A DNA stretch of 64,000 nucleotides from a virus. The stretch is from UHGV virus genome UHGV-0141727, one strand, 5' to 3'. The notes under the pieces are model-generated. The model made no database searches and was not told the DNA's origin. It saw only the letters and a program-made list of their open reading frames with translations. The position numbers and the translations under genes are program-made. This document shows positions 8,477 to 62,334 of the stretch, piece by piece (the stretch's first letter is position 1; every line of letters starts with the position of its first letter).

Positions 8477-8494
8477 ATTGTTAGAAAATTAATT
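8477..8494. promoter_or_regulatory. operator-like motif attgTTAGAAAATTAAtt
   Basis: One of at least 10 dispersed copies of the TTAGAAAAtTAA family. Confidence 0.45.
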
Positions 8495-9522
8495 CAGGAA
8501 TCCATCAGGCGACTATTTGCACCAACGGATGCCCCGCTACGGCGCAAATATCGCATAAGTGTTTCGGGCTTTTTCCATGTGCCTTCCTGCATGATCTCGA
8601 CCATTGACACCTGTTTCTCAGCCATATCAATTGCCGCACCAACACGCGCACTATGACCTGTCCACGTCCGGTATCTTCCTTTGTTCGGCGTGGCATCTCG
8701 CTTATTCAGCAATCCCCAGGCATCGCTGAATATTTTCTCCATCGCAGGAGCAGTAAGAGGCGTTGTCGTGATTCTGGCTTTATTACTGCGGTGTATTGGC
8801 GGGAATAGCACCGCGTCCGGATGTTCACGAAGTCCGGACACCTCCAGCCAGTCGTTTAGCACGGCGGTAGTGCAACGAGAAAGCACCTTATCAAGTCCGG
8901 CGGCGGTCGTGATGGTCTTCGTGTGTGAAATATGCAGCGTTACAGTGTCACCTGTTTGGTCCAGATCTCCGACACGGATGCGCGAGATTTCTGACATACG
9001 CATCAGGGTATTGTATGCCACGAAGAGAAACGCCCGATTGCGCAGGTCCACCAGCCGCTCGGAACGGGACAGCAATACGTCGAGCAATTTCAGATCATCC
9101 CACCGCAACGGTATAGCCTGGCCTGTACGCTCGCCTTTTTCCGTTGCCGCTTCGCGCCGGATGCGCCGCATGGCCAGAGATACACTTTTATCGTCTGACA
9201 GCGGCGGTAGGCCGCATTGCGAAAGCAGCATGTTAAGCATGGCATAGTGCTTATCAATGGTGGTCGAAGCCAGATCGGCTTCATGCAACTGGAGAAGATA
9301 CTCGCGGGCCATTTCCGGCGTAATCGGGAACCAGGGGCGCTGGCGCGAATTACACCACCGCGCCCAGGAATGAAAGACCAGACGGAGATCACGAAGTGTA
9401 TTTGGGGCATAAGCTCCCTGGTCGTTCATGAACTGCATAAAGTTTTTTGCAGCTTCCTGGTATTCGGTGCCAATATCGCGCAGAAAACCGCCAGAACCGC
9501 CGGAGATAACTAGTTCACCCAT
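8494..9522 (-). CDS. cre: Cre-family tyrosine recombinase
   Basis: Collinear similarity to P1 Cre as recalled (SWARWCNSRQRPWFP, VSLAMRRIRRE, GHSARVGAA). Confidence 0.9.
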   Translation of the reverse strand: MGELVISGGSGGFLRDIGTEYQEAAKNFMQFMNDQGAYAPNTLRDLRLVFHSWARWCNSRQRPWFPITPEMAREYLLQLHEADLASTTIDKHYAMLNMLLSQCGLPPLSDDKSVSLAMRRIRREAATEKGERTGQAIPLRWDDLKLLDVLLSRSERLVDLRNRAFLFVAYNTLMRMSEISRIRVGDLDQTGDTVTLHISHTKTITTAAGLDKVLSRCTTAVLNDWLEVSGLREHPDAVLFPPIHRSNKARITTTPLTAPAMEKIFSDAWGLLNKRDATPNKGRYRTWTGHSARVGAAIDMAEKQVSMVEIMQEGTWKKPETLMRYLRRSGASVGANSRLMDS

Positions 9523-9673
9523 GAAACTATTAAACCTCTATATACAGATGACGCTACGTGAAAAATAGAAAACTGACAGGGTAGTTATAAGTTAATTTTC
9601 AAAATTCAAGCCTTTGATTCGAGGCATGATTTTTCATCCTTGTCAATACTACCTGTTTACTGGAGATTATAGC

Positions 9674-9707
9674 CTAACTTTAAATAATGCCAATTATTTA
9701 AAGTTAG
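9674..9707. other. lox-like recombination site, 13-bp inverted arms around an 8-bp spacer
   Basis: CTAACTTTAAATA-ATGCCAAT-TATTTAAAGTTAG; arms share TAACTT..ATA with loxP; about 150 bp upstream of cre. Confidence 0.55.
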
Positions 9708-9874
9708 AAATCGGGACTTTTTTCCCAAAAAAACACCGACAAGATCACTTCGCAAATCTGTCAGCCATGCGGTAGCCGTTTCCTGGTTACATTTTCTAAT
9801 AGGAACAATCAAAAAAAAGCGGTTTTATCCTTTACTCACCTTGTTATTCAGCATAAATTTGTCACAGGACTTTT

Positions 9875-9890
9875 ATGTTAGAAAACTAAA
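9875..9890. promoter_or_regulatory. operator-like motif ATGTTAGAAAActaaa just upstream of the 9904 gene
   Basis: Same family as the other dispersed sites. Confidence 0.4.
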
Positions 9891-9903
9891 TCGAGTAGGA
9901 ATA

Positions 9904-10941
9904 ATGAGTAAGAAGTCGATCGAGAATGAGTACAAACGGTTCCTGCAAACCGCTGAACGGTGGAAAGAGCTGGTGGTCGCAAACTCTGTTTTCCATGATA
10001 CCAGTTACGTTGGCGAGGAATTTCGCCATGTTGCATTAACACATGATCCGGCTGTATTAGAAGAAGCTGAAAAATGCATAGCCGAATGGAAAGCCTTTGT
10101 TGATCTGTGTCGCAAGGATGATGACAAAGCCTCAAACATTGTTGAGTCGGTTTATTTACCGATCCCATTCATTGTTGAGGATACTAATCAGAGTACGCAT
10201 ATCGTTATGCAAAGCGCAACCACAACGAGAACATTTACGCGCGAAGACCTGCTGAAAAAATACGATAAAACTATAAAGAAAAGCATGAAAAACAGGATCT
10301 TTTCACAGGTTGTCGGTGCGCTTGAAGAAGAACGCAGATTCTTCGCCGCAGAACGTGAGGGCGAGGTATACCGCGCAAGAAAAGAAGGTTATACCGATGT
10401 GGTGATTACCACCAATATCGAGGGCAACAATGGACTTTCACGCTTCAGAGTGGGTACGCACGGTGCGCTGATCTTTGCAAAAAAAGCAAACACAGAGATT
10501 CCCGTTGTTAACAACGTTGGTGAGCGCCGCACCCTTACCATTTACACTGGCATTAAACCGCTTCCGTGCGGACTTCTCGGCGAATTTGACCTTTATCGGG
10601 TTCGTGACCTGGAAAAGCAGCAGCCAAGCTATGTCGTGAAGTCATATATCCTGAGAAACATTGATATCCGCAATCAGAGTTTAAAAAACAAATCAGAGAA
10701 AATGCTGTCCGAAGCTGATCCAGCCATACACCAGATCGTTAGCCGGAAAATTCAAGAAGCTAAAGATGCAATGGCAAGGCTGGATAAAATGGACCTGGAA
10801 CTACTGGAAGTTATGATTGCCTCCGGCGATGACCTGACAGGCATCCGCCTTACTGAAGCCAGGAAAAAATACGGTAAAAGCGTTGAAGAACGCTATGGGT
10901 ACACATTCACACAAACGATGTACGCGGCAAAACTCTGGTAA
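9904..10941 (+). CDS. hypothetical protein in the position P1 uses for c1 (candidate primary repressor)
   Basis: Start at 9904 preferred (AGGA 4 nt upstream); divergent from cre, convergent with pacB; operator-like motif in its leader. Confidence 0.5.
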   Translation: MSKKSIENEYKRFLQTAERWKELVVANSVFHDTSYVGEEFRHVALTHDPAVLEEAEKCIAEWKAFVDLCRKDDDKASNIVESVYLPIPFIVEDTNQSTHIVMQSATTTRTFTREDLLKKYDKTIKKSMKNRIFSQVVGALEEERRFFAAEREGEVYRARKEGYTDVVITTNIEGNNGLSRFRVGTHGALIFAKKANTEIPVVNNVGERRTLTIYTGIKPLPCGLLGEFDLYRVRDLEKQQPSYVVKSYILRNIDIRNQSLKNKSEKMLSEADPAIHQIVSRKIQEAKDAMARLDKMDLELLEVMIASGDDLTGIRLTEARKKYGKSVEERYGYTFTQTMYAAKLW

Positions 10942-10957
10942 TCGCAAGCCACCCACA

Positions 10958-10980
10958 AGCCCCGAATCGCCGGGGCTTTT
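10958..10980 (+). terminator. rho-independent terminator
   Basis: AGCCCCG-aatcgc-CGGGGCT followed by TTTT. Confidence 0.6.
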
Positions 10981-12487
10981 AAATGTCAATATCAGGAATA
11001 TCCACTTCTGCCAACACCTGATCGCGGAATGTTGCTAGTTCTGCACCAATGTCTTCATTAGCAGGCACGTAATCCACCAGCATAGTGAAGCAGTAGGTAT
11101 CCCATCTGTCCGGCGACTTGATGTTTAACTTCTGCCGCATGTGCTCCTTGCGCATCATCGCCACCTTCCCTTCTTCGTTAAGCATATACGGGATTTTTGA
11201 TGCCTGATCGGCAGTTTTGGGGTCACTATCGATACGCATACGCCCTGATTTAATGGCATCCCCTGCCATAATATTGGCGTAAGCACGCTGATTGACAAAG
11301 CGTTCTCTGTCTCTTAGCGCAAACATAGGTTTACCCCAACGGATGCGAACGGGATTAGCACCACGGCGGACAAGCTGCGCACACGTATCTGAACCAAAGC
11401 CATCAGCATCCACAGCAATGGTGATGTTCGGGTATTTATCAGGAGTGCATTCGTTATAGATAAAGTCGGCAAAAGCCAACGGGTCCATAGTGCCTGGCAT
11501 CTCCAGTATCTTAAAGTTCACAACACGTCGTTTCTCACGATAACCGGATACTTTGCATATATTGAGCACCGATTTGTCGCGACCATTACCGACGTCAGCG
11601 GTCGCTACCCAGCCCCAATCTTTCTCCAGCAACACTTTACGCCGTGCGGCGCGGTCGCACTCATCACGACCAAGCAAATACCCGTTAATTGCACGCGGGA
11701 ACTGGCCCAGCACCTTAACCATGTACTCCAGCGAATCCCTGCCGCCGTACTCCAGCAATTTCTCACGAATAAAGCTCGGTTCAACGAATGGAGATTCTTC
11801 AGAGTTAAGGACTATTGCCGTCCAGACTCCTTCCGGATTGCCTTCTGCCTTTGCCCTTGAATGGTGGGATTCATAAAAGTAACCGCTTGGACGCGTAGGC
11901 TGGGAAAGCATGAGCATACGGTTATCTTTCTGCGTTAACGCCCCCGTCATGACGTTAATCGCCTTATCGGATATGCCCGATGCTTCATCAAGGATTAGCA
12001 GTAAATGCTCCGCGTGCTCCCCCGCCAGTGCCTCTTCGTTACCGAGTCGATAACCTTTACAGAGCACTTCCCATATCCCTTTACGGGAACGCTCATAAAA
12101 CATGGTGTCAGACAGGACAAAATAGGTCTGTAACCAGCCGTGGCGCTTAACAGCATTCGCCCAAAACTGTTTCACGTATTTGAATACGCCTGTTTTTACC
12201 TGGCCTATTTTGTTCGCAACAATAATGACGCGGGCGTCGGGGAACAGGATCATAAAAATTAGTAGCAACATCGCGGTAAGGGACGACTTACCCGTTCCGT
12301 GTCCGGACGTAACGGTCGTCCTGCTCCCCGTCTCCTGCACTGACTGAATGATCTGCTGCTGCTGGTGGGAGGGGAACATCCCAAAAATATCGACAACCGC
12401 CTGGGTAAAGTTGTATCGATACCTGATAACCATATCGCGCCAACGTGGATCACTGGTCACGCACTTAATCTTACGACCACCAGCCAT
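10979..12487 (-). CDS. pacB: terminase large subunit (P1 PacB-type)
   Basis: 502 aa; Walker A GHGTGKS, Walker B LLLILDEASG, C-terminal nuclease-domain length; directly follows the small-subunit gene. Confidence 0.85.
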   Translation of the reverse strand: MAGGRKIKCVTSDPRWRDMVIRYRYNFTQAVVDIFGMFPSHQQQQIIQSVQETGSRTTVTSGHGTGKSSLTAMLLLIFMILFPDARVIIVANKIGQVKTGVFKYVKQFWANAVKRHGWLQTYFVLSDTMFYERSRKGIWEVLCKGYRLGNEEALAGEHAEHLLLILDEASGISDKAINVMTGALTQKDNRMLMLSQPTRPSGYFYESHHSRAKAEGNPEGVWTAIVLNSEESPFVEPSFIREKLLEYGGRDSLEYMVKVLGQFPRAINGYLLGRDECDRAARRKVLLEKDWGWVATADVGNGRDKSVLNICKVSGYREKRRVVNFKILEMPGTMDPLAFADFIYNECTPDKYPNITIAVDADGFGSDTCAQLVRRGANPVRIRWGKPMFALRDRERFVNQRAYANIMAGDAIKSGRMRIDSDPKTADQASKIPYMLNEEGKVAMMRKEHMRQKLNIKSPDRWDTYCFTMLVDYVPANEDIGAELATFRDQVLAEVDIPDIDI

Positions 12488-13851
12488 TAGTCATCCTCCG
12501 GCTGGTCTATCGCAATCTCGTCATCTACAGCATCAAAACCGGTATCCCCCGCGTCATAATCACCGTAGATATCAGCCGTGGCGGAAGGGTCTATATTCAG
12601 GTCTTCATCATTGGCCTCAAATTCACCGGCTTTACGTTCTCCGTTCCGGTCGTAATCCCCCATCCCAAGCCTATCAACGATTTTCGCTACTTCAGCCCGG
12701 CGTTGTGCAAGCCATTGTGGGAGTCCAGCTTGTTGCTCGGCAAACTGCTTCGCCTCTTTATCCAGTTGCTCATCATCAACATCGTTAACGTCAGAAACCG
12801 GAGGCTCCAGAAGTGAGATCGCTTTTGCCGCTCGTGCTGCCAGGATAGCCGGGACACTGACGCCCTGCCGCTCGATATATTCAGCAACGCCTATATCGTC
12901 CAGCTCCTCGCGCTCACGCATACGTATAGCGGCGGCGATAACTCTGGCGGCGCGTGCGTCAGCGCCAATGCGATACTCAATCTCTTTGCCACGCTGCTCG
13001 GCTTGCAGGCGAGTAATCGCCAGTTTTTCTCTGGCCTCAGCCTCTCTGAATGCCTGCTGGCGCGCGCCCTGCGCAAGTTTTTCATCCCCCTGGCGTAGCT
13101 TCTGCTCGGTCTGGTAGATGGCAGCCAACCTACTGATAAAGTCATTCATGTAGTAGGCCGCATCGCTTATTAGGCCGAGAAGACGCTGCCCTGGGTGCAT
13201 TCCCTCTGGCTGTGTATCGCCGAGGGCGTCAATCTCTTCCTGTAGTCGTTCCGCTTCCTGGTCAACGATGGCCTGATACTGAATTGCTCGTTCCTGCGCC
13301 ATCTGTATCGCAAGTCGTAAATGTTCTGTCGCGCCGTTCTTCATCATCTCACGGGCGACGTTGGTGGCAGGCAAAGTGGCGCTTTGAGCTGATGAGTCAG
13401 GGATCATTTGCAATGATCCCATGTTTCGTTGGGCTTTTTCGCTGCTTTTAGGGATCATTTCCCCCATTTCATCACAAAATGATCCCCTTACATCCTTGTG
13501 TATCTTGTTGTTATTACTTGACTTTTCTTTGTGATCCGCATTTTGTTTTTGCGGCATGGCGCGGAATCGTCCACCAGCTAACGATTTGTCAGTTTTTGTA
13601 AATTCTGTGCTTTTATCAGCCTTTTTTTGCTCTTTTTTTGGGCTTGCGGCGCTGCTTTTCGCGCGCTGTTTTGTGCTTTTCCCGGCAGCCTTAGCTTTCG
13701 CTTTAACCTCATTTTTTTTCATATTGAGATGCTTTCTGGCGGTGTTAAAGCTGAGGTCATGCTGCTCGCAATATTCCTTTATGGTGATCCCGGTTTCTTC
13801 TCTTAACTCCAGGAACTTAGCTCGATGCGCTTCCCAATTAATTAACGTCAT
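12487..13851 (-). CDS. pacA: terminase small subunit / pac-recognition protein (P1 PacA-type)
   Basis: N-terminal HTH, lysine-rich linker; coupled to pacB; GATC-rich pac-like repeats inside the gene. Confidence 0.6.
   Translation of the reverse strand: MTLINWEAHRAKFLELREETGITIKEYCEQHDLSFNTARKHLNMKKNEVKAKAKAAGKSTKQRAKSSAASPKKEQKKADKSTEFTKTDKSLAGGRFRAMPQKQNADHKEKSSNNNKIHKDVRGSFCDEMGEMIPKSSEKAQRNMGSLQMIPDSSAQSATLPATNVAREMMKNGATEHLRLAIQMAQERAIQYQAIVDQEAERLQEEIDALGDTQPEGMHPGQRLLGLISDAAYYMNDFISRLAAIYQTEQKLRQGDEKLAQGARQQAFREAEAREKLAITRLQAEQRGKEIEYRIGADARAARVIAAAIRMREREELDDIGVAEYIERQGVSVPAILAARAAKAISLLEPPVSDVNDVDDEQLDKEAKQFAEQQAGLPQWLAQRRAEVAKIVDRLGMGDYDRNGERKAGEFEANDEDLNIDPSATADIYGDYDAGDTGFDAVDDEIAIDQPEDD
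13400..13538. other. candidate pac site: five GATC-containing ATGATCC/GGATCAT elements within about 140 bp inside pacA
   Basis: GATC at 13403, 13415, 13454, 13481, 13534 in a repeated flank context. Confidence 0.45.
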
Positions 13852-14240
13852 AGGGAAGCCTCACGTTTTTTCACGGCGGCGTTCCATAGCTGGTTAGTCA
13901 TCGCCACCAACTGACGCTGCTCCTTTCGTAATTGAGCTTCTATCTTTCGGTTGGTGTTTTTCACCAACAGCCGACCGAATTCAGGAGTGCGCCCGCGCAC
14001 CTTGAACTGGTATCCATTCAGGCCATGTAGCCAATATTTCCGGGGGTATACGCGGTCGTCTATTTCGCAAATGGCACGACTGGAACGAACAAAAAAACGT
14101 ATGATGTTATTTACGTTTACGCGCGACACATGAAGGTGAGGATATTGTGCTTTTGCACGGCTGGTGATTTCGGTGACCGTCAGATAGCAGTCAGCCCTGA
14201 TCATGATATCCGCTATTTCGGCGCTACTGATTTGCTCCAT
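13848..14240 (-). CDS. hypothetical protein, possibly late promoter activator (Lpa-like) by position
   Basis: 130 aa directly upstream of pacA with a 4-nt overlap; operator-like site in its leader. Confidence 0.3.
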   Translation of the reverse strand: MEQISSAEIADIMIRADCYLTVTEITSRAKAQYPHLHVSRVNVNNIIRFFVRSSRAICEIDDRVYPRKYWLHGLNGYQFKVRGRTPEFGRLLVKNTNRKIEAQLRKEQRQLVAMTNQLWNAAVKKREASL

Positions 14241-14314
14241 TTATCCCCCGGATAGAAAAAGACCGAGGGGATGATAATCAGCTTGTTAATACTGAGAAGA
14301 CTGTCAAAAACATG

Positions 14315-14335
14315 ATGTATTAGAAAATTAATATT
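14315..14335. promoter_or_regulatory. operator-like motif atgtaTTAGAAAATTAAtatt
   Basis: About 80 bp upstream of the 14240 start. Confidence 0.45.
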
Positions 14336-14347
14336 AACTTACTAACA

Positions 14348-14731
14348 CTACCAGCGGGATAAACGAACAACATGCTTAACTTTTGCCTCCCACTTCCCTT
14401 TATGTTTGTTGATCACCGCCTGCGCCATCTTCAGACTGGCTTCAAAATCGGCTTTTCGACCACTATTGCCCACCAGCAACGCTCCGTCTATTTCGGGTAA
14501 GCATAAGTAATCCTGCTCGACGGTAAGCGGCATTGATGATGTAACCTGGCAGGCTTTCCATCTGAAGCGTATGCGCACACTCCTGACTGACATCACGACA
14601 TAACCTGATATTGTGCTCTTGTGTCCGGCGTCTGTGCGTGTAGCCTTGCATGATGTTATCTTGCAGGTGATGATGTCCCAACCAATGTGCATTGCATCCT
14701 CAATGCGTAATTTAGTAGCCTCGTACATCAA
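14348..14731 (-). CDS. hypothetical protein (127 aa)
   Basis: 4-nt overlap with the upstream gene. Confidence 0.35.
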   Translation of the reverse strand: MMYEATKLRIEDAMHIGWDIITCKITSCKATRTDAGHKSTISGYVVMSVRSVRIRFRWKACQVTSSMPLTVEQDYLCLPEIDGALLVGNSGRKADFEASLKMAQAVINKHKGKWEAKVKHVVRLSRW

Positions 14732-15303
14732 AAAACCTCCCAGTCAGTAGCGATAATATCGACACCAGTTGCAAACCAGTCTGTCTGCGCCTGTAAATCC
14801 CCATTCATCATTACCAGGCGAGGCATAACCATCACATCACAACCTTCAACAATATCGAATGCCTCTTCCGGCAGGAATTCGACGAGCTTTTCTTTGCTGC
14901 CAACACTGCCACGGAGCATCGATATATAGCTCCCTTTAGGCCATGATGTTCGCCGGGCATCAAGCCCCTTCATCATCCAGTAAAAGGCCGATGAGAACGG
15001 GATGTTCTTTTTGGCGATGAGCACGTTATTCGCTTCTGTGTACTTCAGGAACTTAACTAACCTTACCATCGACTCGGATAACGCAATGTACGGCTCATGA
15101 TTGATTGCTGACACGCTTACGCCGTGCAGTCCAACACTTACCACTGTCATATCACCGTTCTGTGCGGTTTCGATGTTGACGCCTTTACGAACTAACGCTG
15201 CATAAAGCTCCTCGCGCTTTTGCGTCCAGCATTCTCGTCGCCCTATAAAGTCACTCAAAACGAGATCATCTTCTGAATACGCGTTATCGTTCGCCGTTAA
15301 CAT
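14728..15303 (-). CDS. protein with C-terminal DUF2829-like domain (paralog of the 6424-7086 C-terminus)
   Basis: AFYWMMKGLDARRTSWPKG...DIIATDWEVF parallels ALMWLKDGKKVARRGWNG...DLLACDWFVVE. Confidence 0.4.
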   Translation of the reverse strand: MLTANDNAYSEDDLVLSDFIGRRECWTQKREELYAALVRKGVNIETAQNGDMTVVSVGLHGVSVSAINHEPYIALSESMVRLVKFLKYTEANNVLIAKKNIPFSSAFYWMMKGLDARRTSWPKGSYISMLRGSVGSKEKLVEFLPEEAFDIVEGCDVMVMPRLVMMNGDLQAQTDWFATGVDIIATDWEVF

Positions 15304-15756
15304 AACGTCTCCTTTTTTACACGCGCGACTATCCCCCGGCTGAACCGGTAGTGACGTCGTAACTTCGTATTAATTAAGGGTTACAGCCTGAGCGGCTATA
15401 TGATGAATTGAAAGGAGTTGTGGCGGTGGTGCCTCCACCTGCCAGGTTAGCCACGCCCGGCGACGACACTTATCAGAACGTAGTGAATGAAAATGGCTTC
15501 GTCACGAGCGCATAGCCGCAATTACCACAACGGAGAAGGCGCTCGTATTAATTAAACACCTTTTCCTGTTGTACGCCGTGCTATTCCGGCTGTCACACCG
15601 AATCGCCAGGATGGTGAGTCCCTGAGTCCGCTATCCTACCAACGGTGACTTGCACATTCCGGCTACCTGATGTGCCCATGCAGTGTTAGTAAGGCACCTA
15701 ACAGCTACACCAGACCGCTAACGACGCATGTGCCATACGCCGTGTTACAACCAAAT

Positions 15757-15832
15757 GTGGTGGCCCCTACCGGACTTGAACCGGTGACCGTGCGATTATG
15801 AGTCGCCCGCTCTAACCACTGAGCTAAAGGGC
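15757..15832 (-). tRNA. tRNA with CAU anticodon, ileX-like (tRNA-Ile2 lysidine type; tRNA-Met by anticodon alone)
   Basis: GGCCCTTTAGCTCAGTGGTTAGAGCGGGCGACTCATAATCGC...GGTTCAAGTCC...CCA; close to E. coli ileX as recalled. Confidence 0.8.
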
Positions 15833-16261
15833 CAGATTACTGTTAATTACGCTTACGCTTTTTGCCAGAACCGCGTAAGGCTTTTGCCGCTTGCTCTACC
15901 CCGTATGCAACCACCAGCAGAAACAATAATGTCCACTCCGGGTTTTTATCGGCAAACGCCCAAAAATCCATCACTTGCAGCCACCTTTTAAGACAAACAC
16001 CATTGCTGTTAGGTTGCGGTGCCGGGTGCCTCCCGGTGACGTTAACCAGTTAACAATTAACGCCGGATCACTTATGGATTCTCGTTACGCCAGTAAAAAG
16101 ACCACCTTTACTGTTTTAACTGTACCGCGTGCGCTTAGCCGCATTCACCGCAATGGTAAGAGCACTTGGCTGGCTGGGCGGCGATGACGCCTGTACGCAT
16201 TTGGTGATCCGGTTCTGCTTCCGGCATTCGCTTAATTAGCCAAATACTCTTAACGTTGCGA

Positions 16262-16588: not shown

Positions 16589-16589
16589 T

Positions 16590-16838: not shown

Positions 16839-18151
16839 ACTTGCCGGGTACGTCTCCGGCGAGGGCTTCCACCTCCGTATGCTTTTCGGCGCACCGCGCC
16901 CTGGCTGCAATTCGGTAACAGGGGATGCACAACCCTGGCTTCCAGCGTGATTAGCGCCTTCAGCATGACGGGATATACCCGTTACAAGACATTATTCCAG
17001 AAAGCCATTAACCAATGGCTGTTACGCGGGAAGGACGTAACAGGTAAGGGCGCTGACCAGAAAGACCTGACCCTTCTCATTCATCTGGTTAATCACACCA
17101 GCGCCCTTGCCTGTTATGCCTCCCCGTTCCCTAATACACAGACGGGGACACTCTGCGGTCGATTTTTTGACGGGGGACGACTCATACCCCGTGGCGTCAG
17201 GCTTCTTAGGCCGCTACCATCATCAGATCATCGTTTGCATTTACTTTAATGGTCGGGTTCTAAACCGCCGCAAAGTCGCTAACCATGACGAAAACACTGA
17301 AAAAACACCCACCCGAAGGTGGGCAAATATCCCACTCGCGGTATTGCCACTTAGGCGTATGGTCAACCTGGCAACTCGGTGTCCTCAACGGGGAAGGAAT
17401 AACCCCGCCATACTTACCGCCGCGCCTGTCGCGGTTATCGCTACGTATCAACATAAAAGCCGACTGCCTGAGCAAGATTCACTTTCAAAGGCCCGCAGAA
17501 AGGAATCCATAGTCGGCTTTTATCTTGAAGCGGCTCTCTCTCCGCCCGTCACCGTCCTATCCCGGTTGTCGCGTTTGCCACGCCAGCCGTAACGAGGTTT
17601 AAAGTCTTTTCACGTTTTCATCACTCGACTGCCGTCTATGGCTGTTCGTTGCAGCGGGGGTGCCTCCCCCTGGGGATATCCCCGGCCTTACCCCCATTCT
17701 TTCAAAACACAATGCAAGGCCACATCCGCATAGGTGCATTACCGCAACGTTAAGGAGACTCAGAGTCAGCAAAATAAGAGGAAAACCCAACTCTGCGCCT
17801 CCTTAACGTTGAGGATGTGCACTGATGATGACCCGATGCAGCCTGGCCCACTTAACATACTCACTGCCAGATCATCATCAATGAACACCTTAAAAAGACC
17901 TTCCGTGGCTCAAGTCACTGTCGTTTACTCCGTAAAATGCTCTCGCTGAAACCACTTTACGCACTAAACCTGCCGGGCATGTATTTGCACGGTGCCGGAG
18001 CTTTCCCTTACCTTAAAATTTACTTTCTAACACTTAAATTTGTTTTATGCTGGTGGGGAAAGACAATGAAGTGACTATCAAACCCGCAAGCGACATGGGA
18101 AGCTCCCCACCAGCACGAAAAATTCTATGTTAAGTTAACCCCATAATCAAT

Positions 18152-18184
18152 ATGTTAGAAAAACAAATTTAATTTTCTAACATG
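18152..18184. promoter_or_regulatory. palindromic operator pair ATGTTAGAAAA-N10-TTTTCTAACAT
   Basis: Perfect 11-bp inverted arms; abuts the 3' end of the 18185 gene. Confidence 0.5.
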
Positions 18185-19393: not shown

Positions 19394-19417
19394 GTTTGTT
19401 CCCTTTCTTGAAATTAG

Positions 19418-19428
19418 TTTTCTAACAT
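19418..19428. promoter_or_regulatory. operator-like motif TTTTCTAACAT
   Basis: About 25 bp upstream of the 19393 start. Confidence 0.45.
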
Positions 19429-20025: not shown

Positions 20026-20472
20026 TTAATCAAGATTTACATATTCCGTGATAGCTTTTATGGCTTCATCGGCACTGCGCGCCTCAAAGCAGTAATAGCC
20101 TGCTTCCGTGAGGCGGGTCATCCAGACGAGCTGTTCGGGAGTCAGACGGTTTCTCCCGTGCTTCATCTCAATGCGCATTCCGTGATACCCACCACGAGCA
20201 AGGTCAATAGAAAGGTCCGGATAGCCCTTCTTCTGACCTTCTGCCACCATCTTAATGGCTGTCCTTTTGCCTCTCAGGCCGCCGTTCGGTGTTGAGTGTG
20301 TGTGTTCATACACGTATCGCATGTTGCGATACAGCCAATCCAGAACGCGAACCTGTTCGTAATGTTCGTAATTCCGTTTTAGTAAGTCAGGATTTCTTTC
20401 TAACTCTCTCAGTGCAGCAGCGTGCGGGGATATTTCAGAATACGCACTATGATGCCTGCGTCTTCGCATCAA
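20026..20472 (-). CDS. VRR-NUC domain nuclease-like protein
   Basis: Motif string VLDWL...PNGG...GYPDLSID...IEMK...LTPEQLVWMTRL fits the VRR-NUC / PD-(D/E)xK pattern. Confidence 0.6.
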   Translation of the reverse strand: MMRRRRHHSAYSEISPHAAALRELERNPDLLKRNYEHYEQVRVLDWLYRNMRYVYEHTHSTPNGGLRGKRTAIKMVAEGQKKGYPDLSIDLARGGYHGMRIEMKHGRNRLTPEQLVWMTRLTEAGYYCFEARSADEAIKAITEYVNLD

Positions 20473-20483
20473 ATTTCTAACAC
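20473..20483. promoter_or_regulatory. operator-like motif ATTTCTAACAC at the VRR-NUC gene start
   Basis: Family member immediately 5' of the start codon. Confidence 0.4.
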
Positions 20484-30453: not shown

Positions 30454-31001
30454 CAGTGAGCCTCCGCAATGCCGGGATTGGTAATATTGCGATACCAGGG
30501 ATTAGTGTTTGGTTGTGGGGAAGTAGAGAAACGACCAGTGAGAACGCCATACTGATCAGGGATCAGAGAACGGGCTTCTTTTTCAGTTGCGGCAATTGCG
30601 AAGTGATCACAATGTTTTTGCAGGGAGTGGAAACGCCAGATGAATTCTGGACGTGAGCAAGGATTGGCATTAACCATAGTTACGGCCTCATGTACAGGTT
30701 TAACAACCTGCAACCCGCTGCTAAACGGGTGGCAGGACGTGACGGGGTTAGCAGACTGGCGTACATGAAACCAGCAGGCCGAAGCCTCCCCATCACGCCC
30801 CACCATAATTTGGGCGTAACGTGGTTTACGGACACAAAAATACCGCAATATCGGATATCTGCGGTTGTCCGCATGTACATTCAGGCTGCTAAACCCGGTC
30901 GCAGAATTTGCTACGACGGCATGAATATAAGCCTGAACATTAGAAAGATCAACAGAATTTTTATCAGATGCTGTTTTTTTGTGACGATGTAAATCATACA
31001 T
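30453..31001 (-). CDS. hypothetical protein (182 aa), first gene of the immI-like operon
   Basis: Cys/His-rich ORF; operator-like motifs directly upstream. Confidence 0.4.
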   Translation of the reverse strand: MYDLHRHKKTASDKNSVDLSNVQAYIHAVVANSATGFSSLNVHADNRRYPILRYFCVRKPRYAQIMVGRDGEASACWFHVRQSANPVTSCHPFSSGLQVVKPVHEAVTMVNANPCSRPEFIWRFHSLQKHCDHFAIAATEKEARSLIPDQYGVLTGRFSTSPQPNTNPWYRNITNPGIAEAH

Positions 31002-31006: not shown

Positions 31007-31037
31007 ATTAGAAACATCAATTTAATTTTCTAACACA
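31007..31037. promoter_or_regulatory. operator pair ATTAGAAAC-N10-TTTTCTAACAC
   Basis: Inverted pair immediately upstream of the 31001 start. Confidence 0.5.
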
Positions 31038-32222: not shown

Positions 32223-32238
32223 GTGTTAGAAAATTAAG
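32223..32238. promoter_or_regulatory. operator-like motif GTGTTAGAAAATTAAG
   Basis: Between the 32251 gene end and the terminator. Confidence 0.45.
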
Positions 32239-54507: not shown

Positions 54508-54737
54508 CATTGACTGTGTGCGATTCCAAGCGTTGACTATACGCGACAAACATTGACGCTGGCGGATTTAGTTATTAACTTTTTCACATGATCAATGGAT
54601 AAACCAGCTATTTCATTGAGTATTTGTCGCTTATAGTCAATCTTTCCTCATTTCTTGTCGTGTGTAGTCAATGTTTTGTGATCGGGATCGAGTACAGTCA
54701 ACATTAGTTGTAAGCCATTTCGCCTATAGTCAACATT
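54507..54737. repeat. downstream iteron cluster (incA-like), mixed orientation
   Basis: Direct units at 54507, 54529, 54550; inverted units near 54627, 54658, 54689, 54721. Confidence 0.65.
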
Positions 54738-54754
54738 TCTCCATCAGCAGTCTT

Positions 54755-58337: not shown

Positions 58338-59993
58338 TCAACGCATCAGGATTGGTTTGCCGAGGATTCGACGAGCAGTGCCTGTTGGACACACGGACCA
58401 TTCCACTTCCCACAAGTCGATGTCTTTTTGAGTTACCTTGACCACATAAGGGTCAGAACCTTGAGATTCATCGCGTGGTGTAACCAGCGCACCAGCCGCA
58501 TAAAAACGGTCCAGAAGATCTGTCAGTGCGTTAGTCAGACTTTCCTGCGTTACGCCATCAGGTTCATGCTTGATTGCCTGAGCAACTTCATAGAAATTGC
58601 GGGCAATTGCATTCATCAGTGATGAAACGTGCTGGAATCGCAGATAGTTATTTTTGCTGTATGTCGTCAGGGAGTCGTCGATGTAGACAGAACCATCCGC
58701 TGCAACGCTTACTGGGTTAATACGAGCGGTCACATACGCTTCACGATCGATTGTGCCAATCCCGGAGAGTCTGGTGATGTTCTGGCGATCAATGATTGCG
58801 CGAGACAGACCAGCCGGGGCGTAATGCCAGCCGCCTACATCAGACACAAGCGCAACGCCTTTAGCTTTTGCCACAAATGCGTCGCAACTGATTCCGTAAA
58901 CCACATTCATACCGCTGAAAGTGTCACGGCATGAGTACGGGAAGTGATAACGTGCAGCCTGGTGGGATTTGCCGAAACCATGTGATTTAGCTTCCGCGAT
59001 AGCGTTATCACCAGTCTGAGCACATTTCAGGTCGTAGAACATATCCACGCGAACGTCTTCTGCCAGCGAATTAATTTTTGCCAGCACGGATGCGTCGTAG
59101 CAGCCCATAGAAAGCAGCGCGGTATAATTAACTTCTGACGCTTCGAGAACCTCTAACGCTTTCAGATAATCATCAGTGTCAATTGAGGACAGATCGCCAT
59201 CTGTACCGCCTTCAAACGCTACATCTTCGAAAGTCAGCAAGTGAGCGGAGTCTTCGGCACCATCAGCCAGTACAGCTCCAAGCCTGGTGGACTGACTTTC
59301 TAACAACGCAGGAATCCATGCTGGCTGGCCCATATCGTTCGTTGCATCCGGATCGAAAGAAACCTGGTAGCTTTCCAGCGTTTCTACAGAACCATCGGTC
59401 TGTGTCTCTTTCAGTTCCAGAGTGAACAGGTCATTTTCTTCGTCCTCACGGGTCAGTGATAACGTGCGGTTTGTCGAAGCATCACCGTCCTTTATGTAGA
59501 AAATAGCCAGTTCACTGCCGGAAATTTCAGGTGTTTCGCTTGCAGCGAAAGTTACCGGAGAAGTGGCTCCAGAAACGGCACGAACGGTCAGTGTATCGCC
59601 GATATTTACCGTTGCTTCGGTCGGAGCAATTTGCAGAGTTTTTGCTGACTTGGTGCTTTTCGACCTGGCCTGAACAGAAACGGCAATGCCCGGTACTTTC
59701 ATGTCTTTTGCGCATACGCGAACCACATAACCGGTGCCGCCTTTTACTGCGCGTTCAACGTGGCGATATGGTTCAAATGCGGCCCCGGTGCGCGGGTGAA
59801 GAGGTGAACCTAACACGCTCTGATAGTTGGCTGCTGTAACCTGCAAAACCTTGCCTGGTGCCCCTCTGCGGGAAATAACCAACCCGGCAAAGACGGAAGC
59901 ACCGCCAGATGTGTTGGACAGGGTAGCATCGGCATTTACGTCCGCTACCGCAACGCCCGCCGCCTGACCAACAGAAAAACCAATTTTATTCAT
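58338..59993 (-). CDS. putative tail sheath protein
   Basis: 551 aa, size and position as P1 gene 22 relative to the capsid-like gene. Confidence 0.4.
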   Translation of the reverse strand: MNKIGFSVGQAAGVAVADVNADATLSNTSGGASVFAGLVISRRGAPGKVLQVTAANYQSVLGSPLHPRTGAAFEPYRHVERAVKGGTGYVVRVCAKDMKVPGIAVSVQARSKSTKSAKTLQIAPTEATVNIGDTLTVRAVSGATSPVTFAASETPEISGSELAIFYIKDGDASTNRTLSLTREDEENDLFTLELKETQTDGSVETLESYQVSFDPDATNDMGQPAWIPALLESQSTRLGAVLADGAEDSAHLLTFEDVAFEGGTDGDLSSIDTDDYLKALEVLEASEVNYTALLSMGCYDASVLAKINSLAEDVRVDMFYDLKCAQTGDNAIAEAKSHGFGKSHQAARYHFPYSCRDTFSGMNVVYGISCDAFVAKAKGVALVSDVGGWHYAPAGLSRAIIDRQNITRLSGIGTIDREAYVTARINPVSVAADGSVYIDDSLTTYSKNNYLRFQHVSSLMNAIARNFYEVAQAIKHEPDGVTQESLTNALTDLLDRFYAAGALVTPRDESQGSDPYVVKVTQKDIDLWEVEWSVCPTGTARRILGKPILMR

Positions 59994-60027: not shown

Positions 60028-60055
60028 AAGTCTCCCCATTTGCATGGGGAGACTT
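60028..60055. other. stable intergenic stem-loop
   Basis: AAGTCTCCCCAT-ttgc-ATGGGGAGACTT; U-tract only on the plus strand. Confidence 0.4.
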
Positions 60056-60058
60056 TTA

Positions 60059-60337
60059 TCAGGCTTCGCCGACCGTGAAGCTGTCACCTACCGTCACTTC
60101 TTTGGTTGACGGTTCAACGCTGACGGCGCTTACGCTCTTTGGGGCTTCATTAACCGTTACGGTGCATGTTGCCGTTTTATTGCCATCGGTGGTTTTGATA
60201 GTGAGCACTGCCTGACCTGCTTTAAGTGCGGTACAGGTTTTGCCATCTACGCTCACAATTTCCGGATGATCTGACTCGATAGTGAAAGATTTATCTGTCG
60301 CATCGGAAGGTGTAATAGTTACCTGAATATCAGCCAT
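60059..60337 (-). CDS. bacterial Ig-like (Big_2) domain protein
   Basis: GGAGG 5 nt upstream of ATG at 60337; ...KAGQAVLTIKTTDGNKTATCTVTV is Big_2-like; ORF track start 60349 is probably the RBS. Confidence 0.6.
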   Translation of the reverse strand: MADIQVTITPSDATDKSFTIESDHPEIVSVDGKTCTALKAGQAVLTIKTTDGNKTATCTVTVNEAPKSVSAVSVEPSTKEVTVGDSFTVGEA

Positions 60338-60478
60338 TTTTTCCTCCATATAGCCCCTTATTCAGGGGCTGGTCTTACTTCTTTTTGGGTGTTTTTCGTG
60401 TCTTTGAAGTGCTCGCGGCGATAGTTTCACCTTCGTTTACTTCAATTGCCGTTGGTGAAACTGACACGTTCGCCACTG

Positions 60479-62176
60479 CTACTTTTTTTCGTTGATTTGC
60501 CCGCTCAACATGTCAATCGCACCTTCTTTCGAACGTGTCAGGCGAAGGCGAGTGAAATAGTTCTCACCGTTGCGCGGATGCACATCGTTGATTGCTTTGC
60601 CCCAAAAAGTGGTGCGGTTCACTAGGGCTGGATTTGTTTCGTGGACATACGGAATAGCAGGCACAGCATCACCTGCGACCAGGCCTGCTTTACCAATGCC
60701 TTCGCCACGACCATAGAAATAGATGTCGTCCAGGCCGAAGTCGTAGCCATATTTCTGGAATTGTTTGCAGATAGGCTTCGGCACTTCGTAGATACGAATG
60801 GAACCAAACAGGGTGCCGATGTATTGAATGTACGGCGACTGTACATAGCCCGGTGCCAACTGGAAGTGCTGCGGCGGTAAGGAACGCAGGAAGTTAGCAG
60901 CATCGCCACCAGCAAAGCCACCACGGATACCGGTGGTCAGGGTGCGGTCAGCCATCTCCTGTGACAGCGCGTTCACAACATGGCGAATTAAACCAACCCA
61001 CGACTCGTAGTTCTGCGCTTCTGGCAGTGCCACATCAAATTCACGACCGTAAACGGTGTGGAATACCAGAGTGCGCAGGCGCATCATATCGATTTCGTGG
61101 GAAATCCAGTTGCGCATTGCAGAGAATTGCAATGCTGCCAGTTCGAGTCCGTGTTCACGGCTCAGGTCAGATGCAGCCATAACCGTATGTTCGGATGCGA
61201 TCACGTACTCCGACGGGCGCAGGGCGTAATTGCGCATGGACTGGTTAATGACTGGTATCAGGTTCGGATTGCGTTCAATGTTGATTTCAACCTGAACAGC
61301 GATTTCAGTGCCTTCTGCTGGTGCTTCATTAAAGGTGATATCGATAACGCCGGTATCGTATCGAACCTTTGCCGTCACAGAGAAAGAGTTGCCGTTGACG
61401 TCTTTGTCGTTGAAATACAGGTTGCCGTCACCATCATCTACTTTGGACGGTTTGCGGTTAATCAGCAGTTTGTTGTAGCCCTGGCGCAGCGGGCAGGCCT
61501 GGCCTTCGAAGTTCTGGATATCAAACTGGAAGGTGGTTTTTCTGCCATCGCCTTTTTCGGTCAGGATGTACAGGCGTTTCATCTGCGAATACACGCCAGC
61601 AGACTGCATGTTCAGTTCATCGCCCTGCTCGAATGTACCGAATTTTGTACCAGCAACGTTGGTCAGCTCGTAAATATTGGTTTCATCACGATCACAAGGG
61701 ATAAACGTACATGCGTCGCTGGTGGCTGCGCCGAGAGAAGCAGGCAGGATCAGTGCGGCATATTGTGCAACCTTCATTACACCATCGGAGGTGCGCATGT
61801 CCTTGGCTACTGATTCAAACATGGCTTTGCCAGCGCCTTCATGCGTCTCTTTAGCGGACTCCATCATCAGGCGCTCAAGTGCCACATGGGCGTTGGCTAA
61901 TACATCGCTTGCCGGATAATGCCCATACTGGCGTTTGTATTCATGAATAGACATGGCCCAGCTACCAATGATCTGGCGAGCTGCTTCTGGTTCAACGCCT
62001 TCAAACATAGGCTCTTTCTGGATAGCTTTTTCCAGGTTAGCCATCATCACTTCGTTGTCGGCAATCATGTTACCGGCAGCATCAGTGGTTGGATCGACGG
62101 TCATAGCCATGACGCTTGCCGCCCGATTCATAATCTCGCGCTCGCGCTTACGAGCTGGCTCAATGTTCTTGTTCAC
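60479..62176 (-). CDS. putative major capsid protein with N-terminal scaffold-like region
   Basis: 565 aa, charged/helical N-terminal 100 aa; ends in slippery A_AAA_AAG; Ig-like gene downstream. Confidence 0.45.
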   Translation of the reverse strand: MNKNIEPARKREREIMNRAASVMAMTVDPTTDAAGNMIADNEVMMANLEKAIQKEPMFEGVEPEAARQIIGSWAMSIHEYKRQYGHYPASDVLANAHVALERLMMESAKETHEGAGKAMFESVAKDMRTSDGVMKVAQYAALILPASLGAATSDACTFIPCDRDETNIYELTNVAGTKFGTFEQGDELNMQSAGVYSQMKRLYILTEKGDGRKTTFQFDIQNFEGQACPLRQGYNKLLINRKPSKVDDGDGNLYFNDKDVNGNSFSVTAKVRYDTGVIDITFNEAPAEGTEIAVQVEINIERNPNLIPVINQSMRNYALRPSEYVIASEHTVMAASDLSREHGLELAALQFSAMRNWISHEIDMMRLRTLVFHTVYGREFDVALPEAQNYESWVGLIRHVVNALSQEMADRTLTTGIRGGFAGGDAANFLRSLPPQHFQLAPGYVQSPYIQYIGTLFGSIRIYEVPKPICKQFQKYGYDFGLDDIYFYGRGEGIGKAGLVAGDAVPAIPYVHETNPALVNRTTFWGKAINDVHPRNGENYFTRLRLTRSKEGAIDMLSGQINEKK

Positions 62177-62266
62177 GGTTAAACCCTAAATTCGGGCGCG
62201 GCGTGAAGATTCTTTTGACGAGGTGACAATACTCACTTTGTTATTTAGTCAATAGCATTAGAAAAA

Positions 62267-62334
62267 TAATTTTCGTTAACAATCTTGTGTTAGTATGGTT
62301 TAATCTTAATTTTCTAACATAAAACATTAGAACA
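62267..62334. promoter_or_regulatory. cluster of four operator-like motifs in the divergent region
   Basis: cATTAGAAAAAtaa, gtGTTAGTA, TTTTCTAACAT, cATTAGAAC. Confidence 0.5.

What the first reader, a model, noticed from the sequence alone, without database searches (positions are those of the whole stretch)
8477..62334. Dispersed operator family (core TTAGAAAAtTAA) marking a global repressor regulon
At least ten copies, often as inverted pairs, occur almost only in intergenic leaders: 8477, 9875, 14315, 18024, 18152-18184, 19418, 20473, 31007-31037, 32223 and a four-site cluster at 62267-62334. This parallels the dispersed C1 operators of P1, but the consensus differs from the P1 operator as I recall it (ATTGCTCTAATAAATTT), implying a repressor of different specificity.
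Basis: seen in the sequence. Interest (0 to 1): 0.55.

Follow-up and report, generated by a model that had tools for sequence, protein, structure and literature searches.

The report
Repressor binding sites of D6-like phage-plasmid
The repeated TGTTAGAAAAnTAA motif is real, strictly non-coding, and is most likely the set of binding sites through which this D6-like plasmid-prophage's C1-type repressor keeps its lytic genes off; it is a diverged counterpart of the classic phage P1 C1 operator network, not a new kind of system.

Summary
The core TTAGAAAATTAA (≤1 mismatch) occurs 10 times against 0.42 expected. All 10 copies lie in the 12.6% of the window that is non-coding, and none lie in 55.8 kb of coding DNA. 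AT-richness does not explain this (0.14 expected).

The full half-site is RTGTTAGAAAAyTAA. There are 12 strong sites at 9 loci, and three loci are near-palindromic pairs.

The window is a D6-like P1-family phage-plasmid. Its C1 homolog is 80% identical to D6 C1 and 21% identical to P1 C1 (same PHROG).

The sites sit where P1 has experimentally defined C1 operators: upstream of c1, lpa, repL, c4-icd-ant, pmgS, pmgM and a tRNA/tci operon.

P1-type operators are absent here, and D6-type sites are absent from P1.

Late promoters are a separate motif, AAATnACAmACT-N3-TAnnnT, found at the P1 late-promoter positions.

Across relatives the motif tracks the C1 lineage around a shared TTAGA core:
- P1: A-TTAGA-GCAAT
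- D6 class: G-TTAGA-AAAT
- Citrobacter/Pantoea class: C-TTAGA-WT

This is a new member of a known kind. Binding is inferred, not shown. I could not read the D6 genome paper to rule out an earlier description.

The parts
9904..10941 (+). c1 homolog (345 aa), the candidate repressor
   Evidence: 80% identical to D6 C1 and 21% identical to P1 C1 (E=1e-7). phrog_1678 also holds P1 C1. NCBIfam phage_rep_C1 scores 24.5 bits, far below the 500-bit equivalog cut-off.
9875..9889 (+). Monovalent operator ATGTTAGAAAACTAA, ending 15 nt before the c1 start codon (autoregulation; analog of P1 Oc1)
   Evidence: PWM score 22.6. 15/15 conserved in D6. Cognate sites lie upstream of c1 in every relative examined.
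9788..9802 (-). Weak candidate site (CTATTAGAAAATGTA) upstream of c1
   Evidence: PWM score 9.2. Only suggestive.
9592..9606 (-). Weak candidate site (AATTTTGAAAATTAA) between dre/cre and c1
   Evidence: PWM score 10.5. Lacks the TTAGA core, so probably not functional.
8478..8492 (+). Monovalent operator TTGTTAGAAAATTAA, just after the cre/dre stop codon and 57 nt upstream of the leftward orf117-dut-isaA operon
   Evidence: PWM score 22.5. Conserved in D6 (14/15), Shigella and, as the cognate motif, Citrobacter.
14317..14348 (.). Bivalent (near-palindromic) operator GTATTAGAAAATTAATATTAACTTACTAACAC, 77-108 nt upstream of lpa-pacA-pacB (analog of P1 Olpa/Op94)
   Evidence: Half-site scores 21.7 and 20.0. 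Same position in D6, Shigella and Enterobacter; the cognate motif lies upstream of lpa in Citrobacter and Pantoea.
13848..14240 (-). lpa (late promoter activator), the inferred key target
   Evidence: Pfam PF25716 BPP1_LPA, E=4e-50.
18152..18183 (.). Bivalent operator ATGTTAGAAAAACAAATTTAATTTTCTAACAT, immediately after the pmgS stop codon. It abuts a leftward promoter-like site reading toward the tRNA/tci genes (analog of bivalent P1 Obanab/Op72ab, or of OpmgT/Op88).
   Evidence: Half-site scores 19.0 and 24.4. TTGATT-17-TAGAAT at 18150-18122. tRNAs lie on the minus strand downstream.
18019..18033 (-). Monovalent operator GTGTTAGAAAGTAAA in the gene-poor stretch between pmgS and the tRNAs
   Evidence: PWM score 20.1. 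14/15 conserved in D6 amid divergent flanks.
19414..19428 (-). Monovalent operator ATGTTAGAAAACTAA, 21 nt upstream of pmgS, overlapping a predicted -10 hexamer (analog of P1 OpmgR/Op86)
   Evidence: PWM score 22.6. 15/15 conserved in D6. TTGAAA-16-TATGTT at 19451-19424.
20469..20483 (-). Monovalent operator GTGTTAGAAATTTGA at the start of pmgM (analog of P1 Op82/Op83)
   Evidence: PWM score 19.2. A promoter-like site at 20535-20508 lies upstream.
31007..31036 (.). Operator pair (strong half 31022-31036 on the minus strand; weak half 31007-21) upstream of c4 RNA-icd-ant (analog of P1 Oc4/Op51)
   Evidence: PWM score 24.7. Strong half 15/15 conserved in D6. TTGATG-16-TATGAT at 31020-30993 has its -35 inside the weak half. 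Rfam c4-a1b1 (30878-30930) and C4 RNA (30725-30810) lie downstream on the minus strand.
30725..30810 (-). C4 antisense RNA gene, the inferred regulated target
   Evidence: Rfam RF01695, 71.7 bits.
32223..32237 (+). Monovalent operator GTGTTAGAAAATTAA, 171 nt upstream of repL (31093-32052, minus strand) and 14 nt after the pro stop codon (analog of P1 OrepL/Op53)
   Evidence: PWM score 24.7. Present in D6 (12/15) and Shigella at the same place.
62306..62320 (-). Strong operator ATGTTAGAAAATTAA between gene 23 (capsid, minus strand) and orf52 (plus strand)
   Evidence: PWM score 24.4. D6 ortholog scores 20.2.
62255..62269 (+). Moderate site GCATTAGAAAAATAA in the same intergenic region
   Evidence: PWM score 14.5.
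62288..62337 (.). Span that contains two weak look-alikes, TGTTAGTATGGTTTAA (62288-62303) and CATTAGAACAATG (62325-62337, overlapping the orf52 start). They flank the strong site 62306-62320, which is listed as its own part.
   Evidence: Read from the sequence. Both are below the PWM threshold; function is doubtful.

Best explanation
The motif RTGTTAGAAAAyTAA is the operator of this element's C1-type prophage repressor (gene at 9904-10941).

In the plasmid-prophage state, C1 is inferred to bind at least 12 sites at 9 non-coding loci, some single and some inverted pairs. Binding would block host RNA polymerase at or next to the promoters of:
- the late-gene activator lpa (and with it pacA/pacB),
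- the lytic replication gene repL,
- the c4-icd-antirepressor operon,
- pmgS and pmgM,
- a tRNA/tci operon,
- a dut-containing operon,
- orf52,
- c1 itself (autoregulation).

Silencing lpa keeps the separate set of late promoters (AAATnACAmACT-N3-TAnnnT) inactive.

The system is the D6-class counterpart of the P1 C1 regulon. The regulon layout is conserved, while the recognition sequence has diverged together with the repressor around a shared TTAGA core.

Shown here: the motif is real, non-coding, and positionally orthologous to P1 operators; it is exclusive to genomes with a D6-class C1; and it is distinct from the late promoters.

Inferred: that C1 is the binding protein, and that binding represses transcription.
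For: - **Enrichment and non-coding restriction:**
- **Element identity:** D6-like P1-family phage-plasmid.
- **Repressor homology:** the C1 homolog shares phrog_1678 with P1 C1.
- **Positions match P1:** the P1 GenBank record annotates C1 operators at c1, lpa, kilA/repL, c4, pmgR/S, pmgM-pmgN, pap-pmgT, ban (bivalent), dmt, ref and mat. The window and D6 sites fall in the same neighbourhoods. D6 has sites at the ref stop codon, upstream of ref and upstream of hrdC-dmt, mirroring Omat, Oref and Odmt.
- **Op51 locus reproduced:** C4 RNA and its a1b1 targets lie directly downstream of the 31007-31036 site.
- **Reciprocal exclusivity:** the window has 12 and D6 has 14 strong D6-type sites with 0 strong P1-type sites; P1 has 21 strong P1-type sites and 0 D6-type sites.
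- **Covariation with C1:** elements with C1 40-100% identical keep GTTAGAAA sites at syntenic places. Elements with about 30% identical C1 have CTTAGA(A/T)T at the same places.
- **Both orientations occur** relative to the downstream gene, as in P1.
- **Promoter overlap:** sites overlap predicted -10 (pmgS) and -35 (c4) hexamers.
- **Conservation:** sites are 84% identical between the window and D6, against 75% for the flanks.
- **P1 paradigm:** 22 dispersed operators and an asymmetric 17-bp consensus (PMC8546580).
Against: - No binding or expression data exist for any D6-class element.
- Covariation with C1 cannot by itself exclude another co-inherited regulator.
- The conservation excess over the flanks is modest (84% against 75%). 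One half of the 18152-18183 pair is not conserved in D6 (7/15).
- Predicted sigma-70 promoters are not enriched over shuffles, so the operator-promoter overlaps are weak evidence. At lpa, the best predicted promoter lies 19 nt beyond the operator and does not overlap it.
- The paired sites have a different geometry from P1 bivalent operators. Here the TTAGA cores converge with 16 nt between them; in P1 they diverge with 8 nt between them.
- C1 scores far below NCBIfam's C1 equivalog cut-off.
- No Coi or Lxc homolog is detectable in the window.
Confidence: 0.85

Rival explanations
1. The motif is bound by a regulator other than C1, either another element-encoded DNA-binding protein or a host factor, that happens to be co-inherited with the D6-class backbone.
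For: Nothing here identifies the binding protein directly. Covariation was scored against C1 only. C1 has no recognisable DNA-binding domain in Pfam and no solved relative.
Against: - The sites replace P1's experimentally defined C1 operators locus for locus.
- A cognate site sits in front of c1 in every lineage.
- A host factor site should also occur in P1, which infects the same hosts, yet P1 has none.
Confidence: 0.07
2. The motif is a promoter element and not a repressor site. For example, it could be the recognition box of Lpa-dependent late promoters, or a shared early-promoter -10/-35 signature.
For: - Some sites precede morphogenesis-type genes (pmgS, pmgM, gene 23).
- The P1-type late box AAGTnACTT is absent from the window, so the late signal had to be found elsewhere.
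- TATGTT within one site can serve as a -10 hexamer.
Against: - A different motif, AAATnACAmACT-N3-TAnnnT, occurs 7 times against 0.99 expected. All copies are co-oriented with late genes and lie at the P1 positions LPpro, LPdar, LPs, LPsit and LP23. One copy is a separate late box for gene 23 at 62226-62246.
- The TTAGAAAA motif occurs in both orientations relative to downstream genes, as palindromic pairs, directly after stop codons, and in front of c1, lpa, repL and c4, which are early or immunity genes.
- In P1, pmgR/S and the pmgM region are themselves C1-controlled.
Confidence: 0.04
3. The motif is a non-functional, compositionally favoured or recombination-derived repeat in AT-rich spacers.
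For: The motif is AT-rich and confined to spacers.
Against: - A model trained on the non-coding DNA expects 0.14 hits against 10 observed, and the spacers are only 3.7 GC points (percentage points of GC content) below coding DNA.
- The core is conserved at orthologous positions in D6, Shigella and Enterobacter elements despite 20-60% repressor divergence.
- The motif is replaced by a related motif at the same positions in more distant elements.
Confidence: 0.02

Closest known systems
Phage P1/P7 C1 repressor and its dispersed operators (immC; Op2, Op21, Op51, Op53, Op55, Op68, Op72ab, Op82, Op83, Op86ab, Op88, Op94, Op99a-e)
   Same: - Homologous repressor (phrog_1678).
- Many operators scattered over a roughly 90-kb plasmid-prophage, in non-coding leaders and just after stop codons.
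- Mixture of single asymmetric sites and inverted pairs.
- Same target set: c1, lpa, repL, c4-icd-ant, pmgR/S, the pmgM region and a tRNA/tci operon, plus ref, mat/simB and hrdC-dmt in D6.
- Shared TTAGA core.
   Different: - Consensus is RTGTTAGAAAAyTAA against ATTGCTCTAATAAATTT, with no cross-matching sites.
- The repressor is 345 aa against 283 aa and only 21% identical, below the NCBIfam equivalog threshold.
- Paired sites are convergent with 21 bp between core centres, against divergent with 13 bp in P1.
- No Coi or Lxc homolog was found in the window.
- The late-promoter box also differs.
Escherichia phage D6 (MF356679) and D6-like plasmid prophages (e.g. Salmonella pYU39_89)
   Same: Same backbone (about 73-98% nucleotide identity by segment; 83.6% over window 8000-20000), C1 80% identical, and the same motif at orthologous positions. 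Predicted to share C1 operator specificity.
   Different: - The window is a distinct lineage. Its C1 is 99-100% identical to those of E. coli plasmid NZ_AP027414 and IMG/VR contig 2579778606_000002.
- Individual sites differ; for example, the left half of the 18152-18183 pair is absent in D6.
- The D6 GenBank records annotate no operators.
- I could not read the D6 genome paper to see whether operators are discussed there.
Lambdoid immunity groups (lambda, 434, P22, HK022 repressor/operator pairs)
   Same: Homologous repressors with diverged operator sequences define immunity specificities. Operator and repressor co-evolve.
   Different: Lambdoid operators are clustered at two sites and bound by HTH dimers. 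Here the sites are dispersed genome-wide, largely asymmetric, and read by a protein with no recognisable HTH family.

Membership tests
P1-type C1 repressor/operator regulon | Repressor homologous to P1 C1 | tested here: met
   BLASTP gives 21% identity over 241 aa, E=1e-7. Both proteins fall in phrog_1678. The match is below the NCBIfam NF041318 equivalog cut-off (24.5 against 500 bits), so it is a homolog, not an equivalog.
P1-type C1 repressor/operator regulon | Operators match the P1 17-bp consensus ATTGCTCTAATAAATTT | tested here: not met
   A P1-operator PWM finds 0 sites >=15 in the window and in D6, against 21 in P1. Only the TTAGA core is shared. The element is therefore not in the P1/P7 C1 specificity group.
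P1-type C1 repressor/operator regulon | Many operators dispersed over the genome, outside coding sequence | tested here: met
   12 strong sites at 9 loci across 54 kb, all non-coding. D6 has 18 sites with PWM score >=14 (19 at >=12) at about 15 loci.
P1-type C1 repressor/operator regulon | Operators at c1 (autoregulation), lpa, repL, c4-icd-ant and other early operons | tested here: met
   Synteny with the annotated P1 operators. C4 RNA lies downstream of the 31007-31036 site. lpa was confirmed by Pfam.
P1-type C1 repressor/operator regulon | Monovalent asymmetric sites plus bivalent inverted pairs | tested here: met
   Six single strong sites and three inverted pairs. The geometry differs from P1: convergent with 16-nt spacing here, divergent with 8-nt spacing in P1.
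P1-type C1 repressor/operator regulon | C1 physically binds the sites and represses the adjacent promoters | not testable with these tools
   Needs EMSA or footprinting, ChIP, or reporter assays. Only weak promoter-overlap predictions are available.
P1-type C1 repressor/operator regulon | Modulators Coi (antirepressor) and Lxc (corepressor) | tested here: inconclusive
   tblastn with P1 Coi, Lxc, ImcA and ImcB finds nothing significant in the window. The window covers only about 64 of about 90 kb. A D6-like Salmonella plasmid was reported to lack Lxc (PMC6799933).
P1 Lpa-dependent late promoters | -22 box AAGTnACTT followed by a -10 hexamer, co-oriented with late operons | tested here: not met
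   The P1 box is absent. The TTAGAAAA motif occurs in both orientations and at early genes. A separate motif occupies the late-promoter positions.

The most novel reading that the evidence does not exclude
C1-family repressors of P1-like phage-plasmids may all read an invariant TTAGA core. Immunity specificity would then be encoded by the base 5' of the core and the 3-5 bases 3' of it:
- P1: A|GCAAT
- D6 class: G|AAAAT
- Citrobacter/Pantoea class: C|(A/T)T
- possibly T|AAT in a further class

On this reading, immunity groups of these elements, which often carry resistance genes, could be predicted from sequence. In addition, the D6 class has re-arranged paired sites into a convergent, two-helical-turn geometry. 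This might be linked to the longer C-terminus of its repressor and the apparent lack of Lxc and Coi. If so, the protein arrangement on DNA would differ from that in P1.
Probability: 0.4. Interest if true: 0.55.

Novelty: new member of a known kind. Interest (0 to 1): 0.4.

Why it matters
P1-like and D6-like phage-plasmids are widespread in Enterobacterales and often carry resistance genes. Their lysis-lysogeny switch depends on C1.

Defining the D6-class operator gives three things:
- a concrete, testable map of the repressed regulon for this group, including the control points at lpa, repL and the antirepressor operon;
- a prediction that this element and D6 share C1 operator specificity but differ from P1 and P7 at the C1 level;
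- a simple sequence rule (the flanks of a TTAGA core) for sorting phage-plasmids into repressor-specificity groups.

It does not reveal a new regulatory principle.

Tried and rejected
1. **Late-promoter reading.** Searching for the P1 -22 box found nothing. Inspection of late-operon leaders then revealed a different late motif, so this reading was rejected.

2. **Second intergenic motif.** AATGTTGACT turned out to be RepA-type iterons around the repA-like gene and is unrelated to the finding.

3. **Paired operators as embedded bidirectional promoters** (TTAGAA-17-TAACAT). This matches only 7 of 12 consensus positions, so I dropped it.

4. **Literature.** The D6 genome paper (PMC5800970), Sauer and McDermott 2004 (PMC534624) and the P1 genome paper (PMC523184) are not held. 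Full-text searches for the motif strings, and for D6 together with operator, found nothing relevant. Prior description therefore cannot be excluded.

5. **Collection scans.** The search for related loci in genome contigs with the D6-class C1 alignment returned no confirmed relatives. A 7-sequence alignment that included P1 was too divergent to search with.

6. **Structure-based mechanism.** PDB has no relative of either C1, and I did not run structure prediction.

7. **Alignment of the D6 and P1 operators.** Aligning them through their 3' AAATTT ends was considered. I set it aside in favour of the TTAGA-anchored alignment, which is supported by the third operator class.

Full report
**What the window is.** Megablast of 8000-20000 against phage records gives Escherichia phage D6 as the best match (83.6% identity over 77%), with P1 and P7 matching only short stretches. 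Local BLAST against the full D6 record shows collinearity of the whole window with D6 84911-91159 and 1-55903, at about 73-98% identity depending on the segment. The window is therefore a D6-like member of the P1 family of plasmid-prophages. tblastn finds plasmids and an IMG/VR contig whose C1 proteins are 99-100% identical to the window's.

**Checking the observation.** TTAGAAAATTAA with up to one mismatch occurs 10 times against 0.42 expected, and 0 of 100 shuffles reach 10. Flanks extend the motif to RTGTTAGAAAAyTAA.

A 15-mer PWM gives a bimodal result: 12 sites score >=19 and nothing else scores above 14.5. In the 62255-62337 'cluster', only 62306-62320 is strong, 62255-62269 is moderate and two others are weak look-alikes.

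An unbiased k-mer scan ranks TTAGAAAA as the most intergenic-enriched 8-mer: 10 of 12 copies lie in 12.7% of the sequence, p=6e-8.

The core has 10 hits in 8,080 non-coding bases and 0 in 55,837 coding bases. A third-order Markov model trained on the non-coding DNA expects 0.14. Non-coding GC is 44.9% against 48.6% for coding.

**Anatomy.** Three loci are near-palindromic pairs: 14317-14348, 18152-18183 and 31007-31036 (whose left half is weak). The other strong sites are single and occur in either orientation relative to the downstream gene.

**The candidate repressor.** The ORF at 9904-10941 encodes a 345-aa protein. It is 80% identical to D6 C1 and 21% identical to P1 C1 over 241 residues, E=1e-7. 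It falls with P1 C1 in phrog_1678. It scores 24.5 bits against NCBIfam's P1-C1 equivalog model, whose cut-off is 500. It has no Pfam domain and no solved relative.

**Positional orthology with P1 operators.** The P1 record AF234172 annotates 'phage repressor C1' binding sites. The table pairs them with the sites found here.

| P1 operator | P1 context | Site in this window or in D6 |
|---|---|---|
| Oc1a-e | upstream of c1 | 9875-9889, ending 15 nt before the c1 ATG |
| Olpa | upstream of lpa | 14317-14348, 77-108 nt upstream of lpa (Pfam BPP1_LPA) |
| OrepL | kilA-repL | 32223-32237, upstream of repL |
| Oc4 | c4-icd-ant | 31007-31036 |
| OpmgRa/b | pmgR-pmgS | 19414-19428, 21 nt upstream of pmgS |
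| O26, Oppp | flanking pmgL-pmgM | 20469-20483, at the pmgM start |
| OpmgT | downstream of pap | possibly 18019-18033 / 18152-18183 |
| Obanab (bivalent) | tRNA-tci-ban operon | 18152-18183 and 18019-18033, downstream of pmgS and upstream of four minus-strand tRNAs and the tci-like genes |
| Odmt | uhr-hrdC-dmt | D6: pair upstream of hrdC-dmt |
| Oref, Omat | ref and mat | D6: one site at the ref stop codon, one upstream of ref |
| Ossb, Orlf | ssb; after repL | no clear counterpart identified |

The 31007-31036 site is followed on the minus strand by a promoter-like site, the Rfam c4-a1b1 element, the C4 antisense RNA, icd and an antirepressor gene. This reproduces the P1 Op51 locus. D6 also has sites upstream of pdcB and between mat and simB, outside the part of the genome this window covers.

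**Specificity.** PWMs built from each operator set are mutually exclusive. The window has 12 and D6 has 14 strong D6-type sites, with no P1-type site >=15. P1 has 21 strong P1-type sites and no D6-type site.

**Excluding the late-promoter rival.** P1 late promoters are AAGTnACTT-N4-TAnnnT, and that pattern is absent here. Leaders of darB, prt, ddrB, lydA, R, pmgB and gene 23 instead share AAATnACAmACT-N3-TAnnnT. It occurs 7 times against 0.99 expected, always on the minus strand and co-oriented with the late genes. D6 has 8 copies against 0.9 expected. These are the positions of P1's LPpro, LPdar, LPs, LPsit and LP23. The late signal is therefore a different motif.

**Comparative evidence.**
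- Orthologous sites are 84% identical between the window and D6, against 75% for 60-bp flanks. This is consistent but modest.
- A Shigella plasmid (C1 68% identical) has 9 sites, and an Enterobacter plasmid (C1 40% identical) has 7 sites plus two upstream of c1. All keep the core GTTAGAAAAT and lie at the same relative positions.
- Citrobacter and Pantoea elements (C1 about 30% identical) lack the motif. Their top intergenic-enriched words are CCTTAGAA and CTTAGATT, located upstream of c1, lpa, ref and rdgC-dam, after cre and around pmgS.
- Anchoring all sets on TTAGA gives: P1 aaAtTtA|TTAGa|GCAAT; window t.TG|TTAGA|AAatTAA; Enterobacter atatG|TTAGA|AAAT; Citrobacter cC|TTAGA|aTTaa; Pantoea C|TTAGA|tTt.
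- In 36 IMG/VR loci grouped by C1 similarity, every locus with C1 >=40% identical to the window's has GTTAGAAA(A/T/G) as its commonest nTTAGAnnn word. Most Citrobacter-class and close Pantoea-class loci have a CTTAGA word on top (CTTAGAAAG in several Citrobacter-type loci, otherwise CTTAGA(A/T)TT). A small group about 45% identical to the Pantoea C1 favours TTTAGAAT, on low counts.

**Mechanism.**
- Shown: the sites flank or overlap promoter-like sequences. The pmgS site covers a predicted -10 hexamer (TTGAAA-16-TATGTT). The c4 site overlaps a predicted -35 hexamer. The 18152-18183 pair abuts a -35 hexamer. The pmgM site lies about 18-32 nt downstream of a predicted start.
- These predictions are weak, because promoter-like matches are not enriched over shuffles.
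- Inferred from P1 biology (PMC8546580): C1 occupancy blocks transcription of lpa, repL, the antirepressor operon and other early genes, and autoregulates c1. With lpa off, the late promoters stay silent.

**Differences from P1.**
- The repressor is longer (345 aa against 283 aa).
- No Coi, Lxc or Imc homolog is detectable in the window. A D6-like Salmonella plasmid was reported to lack Lxc.
- Paired sites have the TTAGA cores pointing toward each other with 16 nt between them (21 bp between centres). P1 and Pantoea pairs have the cores pointing apart with 8 nt between them.

**Prior knowledge.** Neither D6 GenBank record annotates operators. Full-text searches found no paper with the motif in this context. 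The D6 genome paper and the 2004 immC comparison are not available to me, so earlier description cannot be excluded.

**Verdict.** It is the D6-class version of a well-known system: a new member of a known kind. A useful by-product is that operator specificity across P1-like elements appears to be set by positions flanking a conserved TTAGA core.

Noticed in passing
window 53455-53530 and 54525-54745: 21-bp-spaced repeats AATGTTGACTRTRYGCGAT flank the repA-like gene (53623-54507). There are 3-4 direct copies upstream and further copies in both orientations downstream. They look like RepA iterons of the plasmid origin and a copy-control locus (oriR/incA-like).
   Followed up: partly
window 28280-28300, 34981-35001, 37351-37371, 41141-41161, 45785-45805, 53297-53317, 62226-62246 (all minus strand): Candidate D6-class late promoters AAATnACAmACT-N3-TAnnnT lie upstream of darB, prt, ddrB, lydA, R, pmgB and gene 23 (7 copies against 0.99 expected). 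They differ from the P1 -22 box AAGTnACTT, which suggests that Lpa specificity has diverged too.
   Followed up: partly
window 30725-30810 and 30878-30930 (minus strand): Rfam finds the C4 antisense RNA and its a1/b1 target element, so the immI-type antirepressor control is present next to repL. D6 also carries a second icd/antirepressor copy elsewhere in its genome.
   Followed up: partly
window 15761-16838 (minus strand); D6 7145-7850: Rfam calls four tRNA genes on the minus strand. The syntenic tRNAs in the D6 record MF356679 are annotated on the plus strand. This may be a strand discrepancy in that record.
   Followed up: no
window ~16840-18184 (D6 7850-9085): About 1.2-1.3 kb has no annotated gene between the tRNAs and pmgS, yet it holds two operator loci (18019-18033 and 18152-18183). 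It may encode an unannotated small protein or RNA under C1 control.
   Followed up: no
window 9500-9904 and whole window: tblastn detects no homolog of P1 Coi, ImcA/B or Lxc. A 53-codon ORF (9614-9775) lies between weak sites upstream of c1, but it has no similarity to Coi.
   Followed up: partly
window 18152-18183, 14317-14348; P1 68667-68694; L011 30750-30775: Paired operators in the D6 class have convergent TTAGA cores with 16 nt between them. P1 and Pantoea-class pairs have divergent cores with 8 nt between them. In the window, 62306-62337 also contains a divergent TCTAA-N9-TTAGA arrangement.
   Followed up: partly
D6 (L002) 11361-11375 versus annotated pmgM 10918-11412: The D6 operator falls inside the annotated 5' end of pmgM. 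In the window the ORF cannot extend that far, so the D6 start codon is probably annotated too far upstream.
   Followed up: no
window 59292-59306 (minus strand), inside gene 22: This is the best-scoring intragenic match (TTGTTAGAAAGTCAG, score 13.5). It is probably chance, but it is the only coding hit with an intact GTTAGAAAG core.
   Followed up: no
IMG/VR loci L033-L035: Elements whose C1 is about 45% identical to the Pantoea type favour TTTAGAAT words. This hints at a fourth operator class.
   Followed up: no
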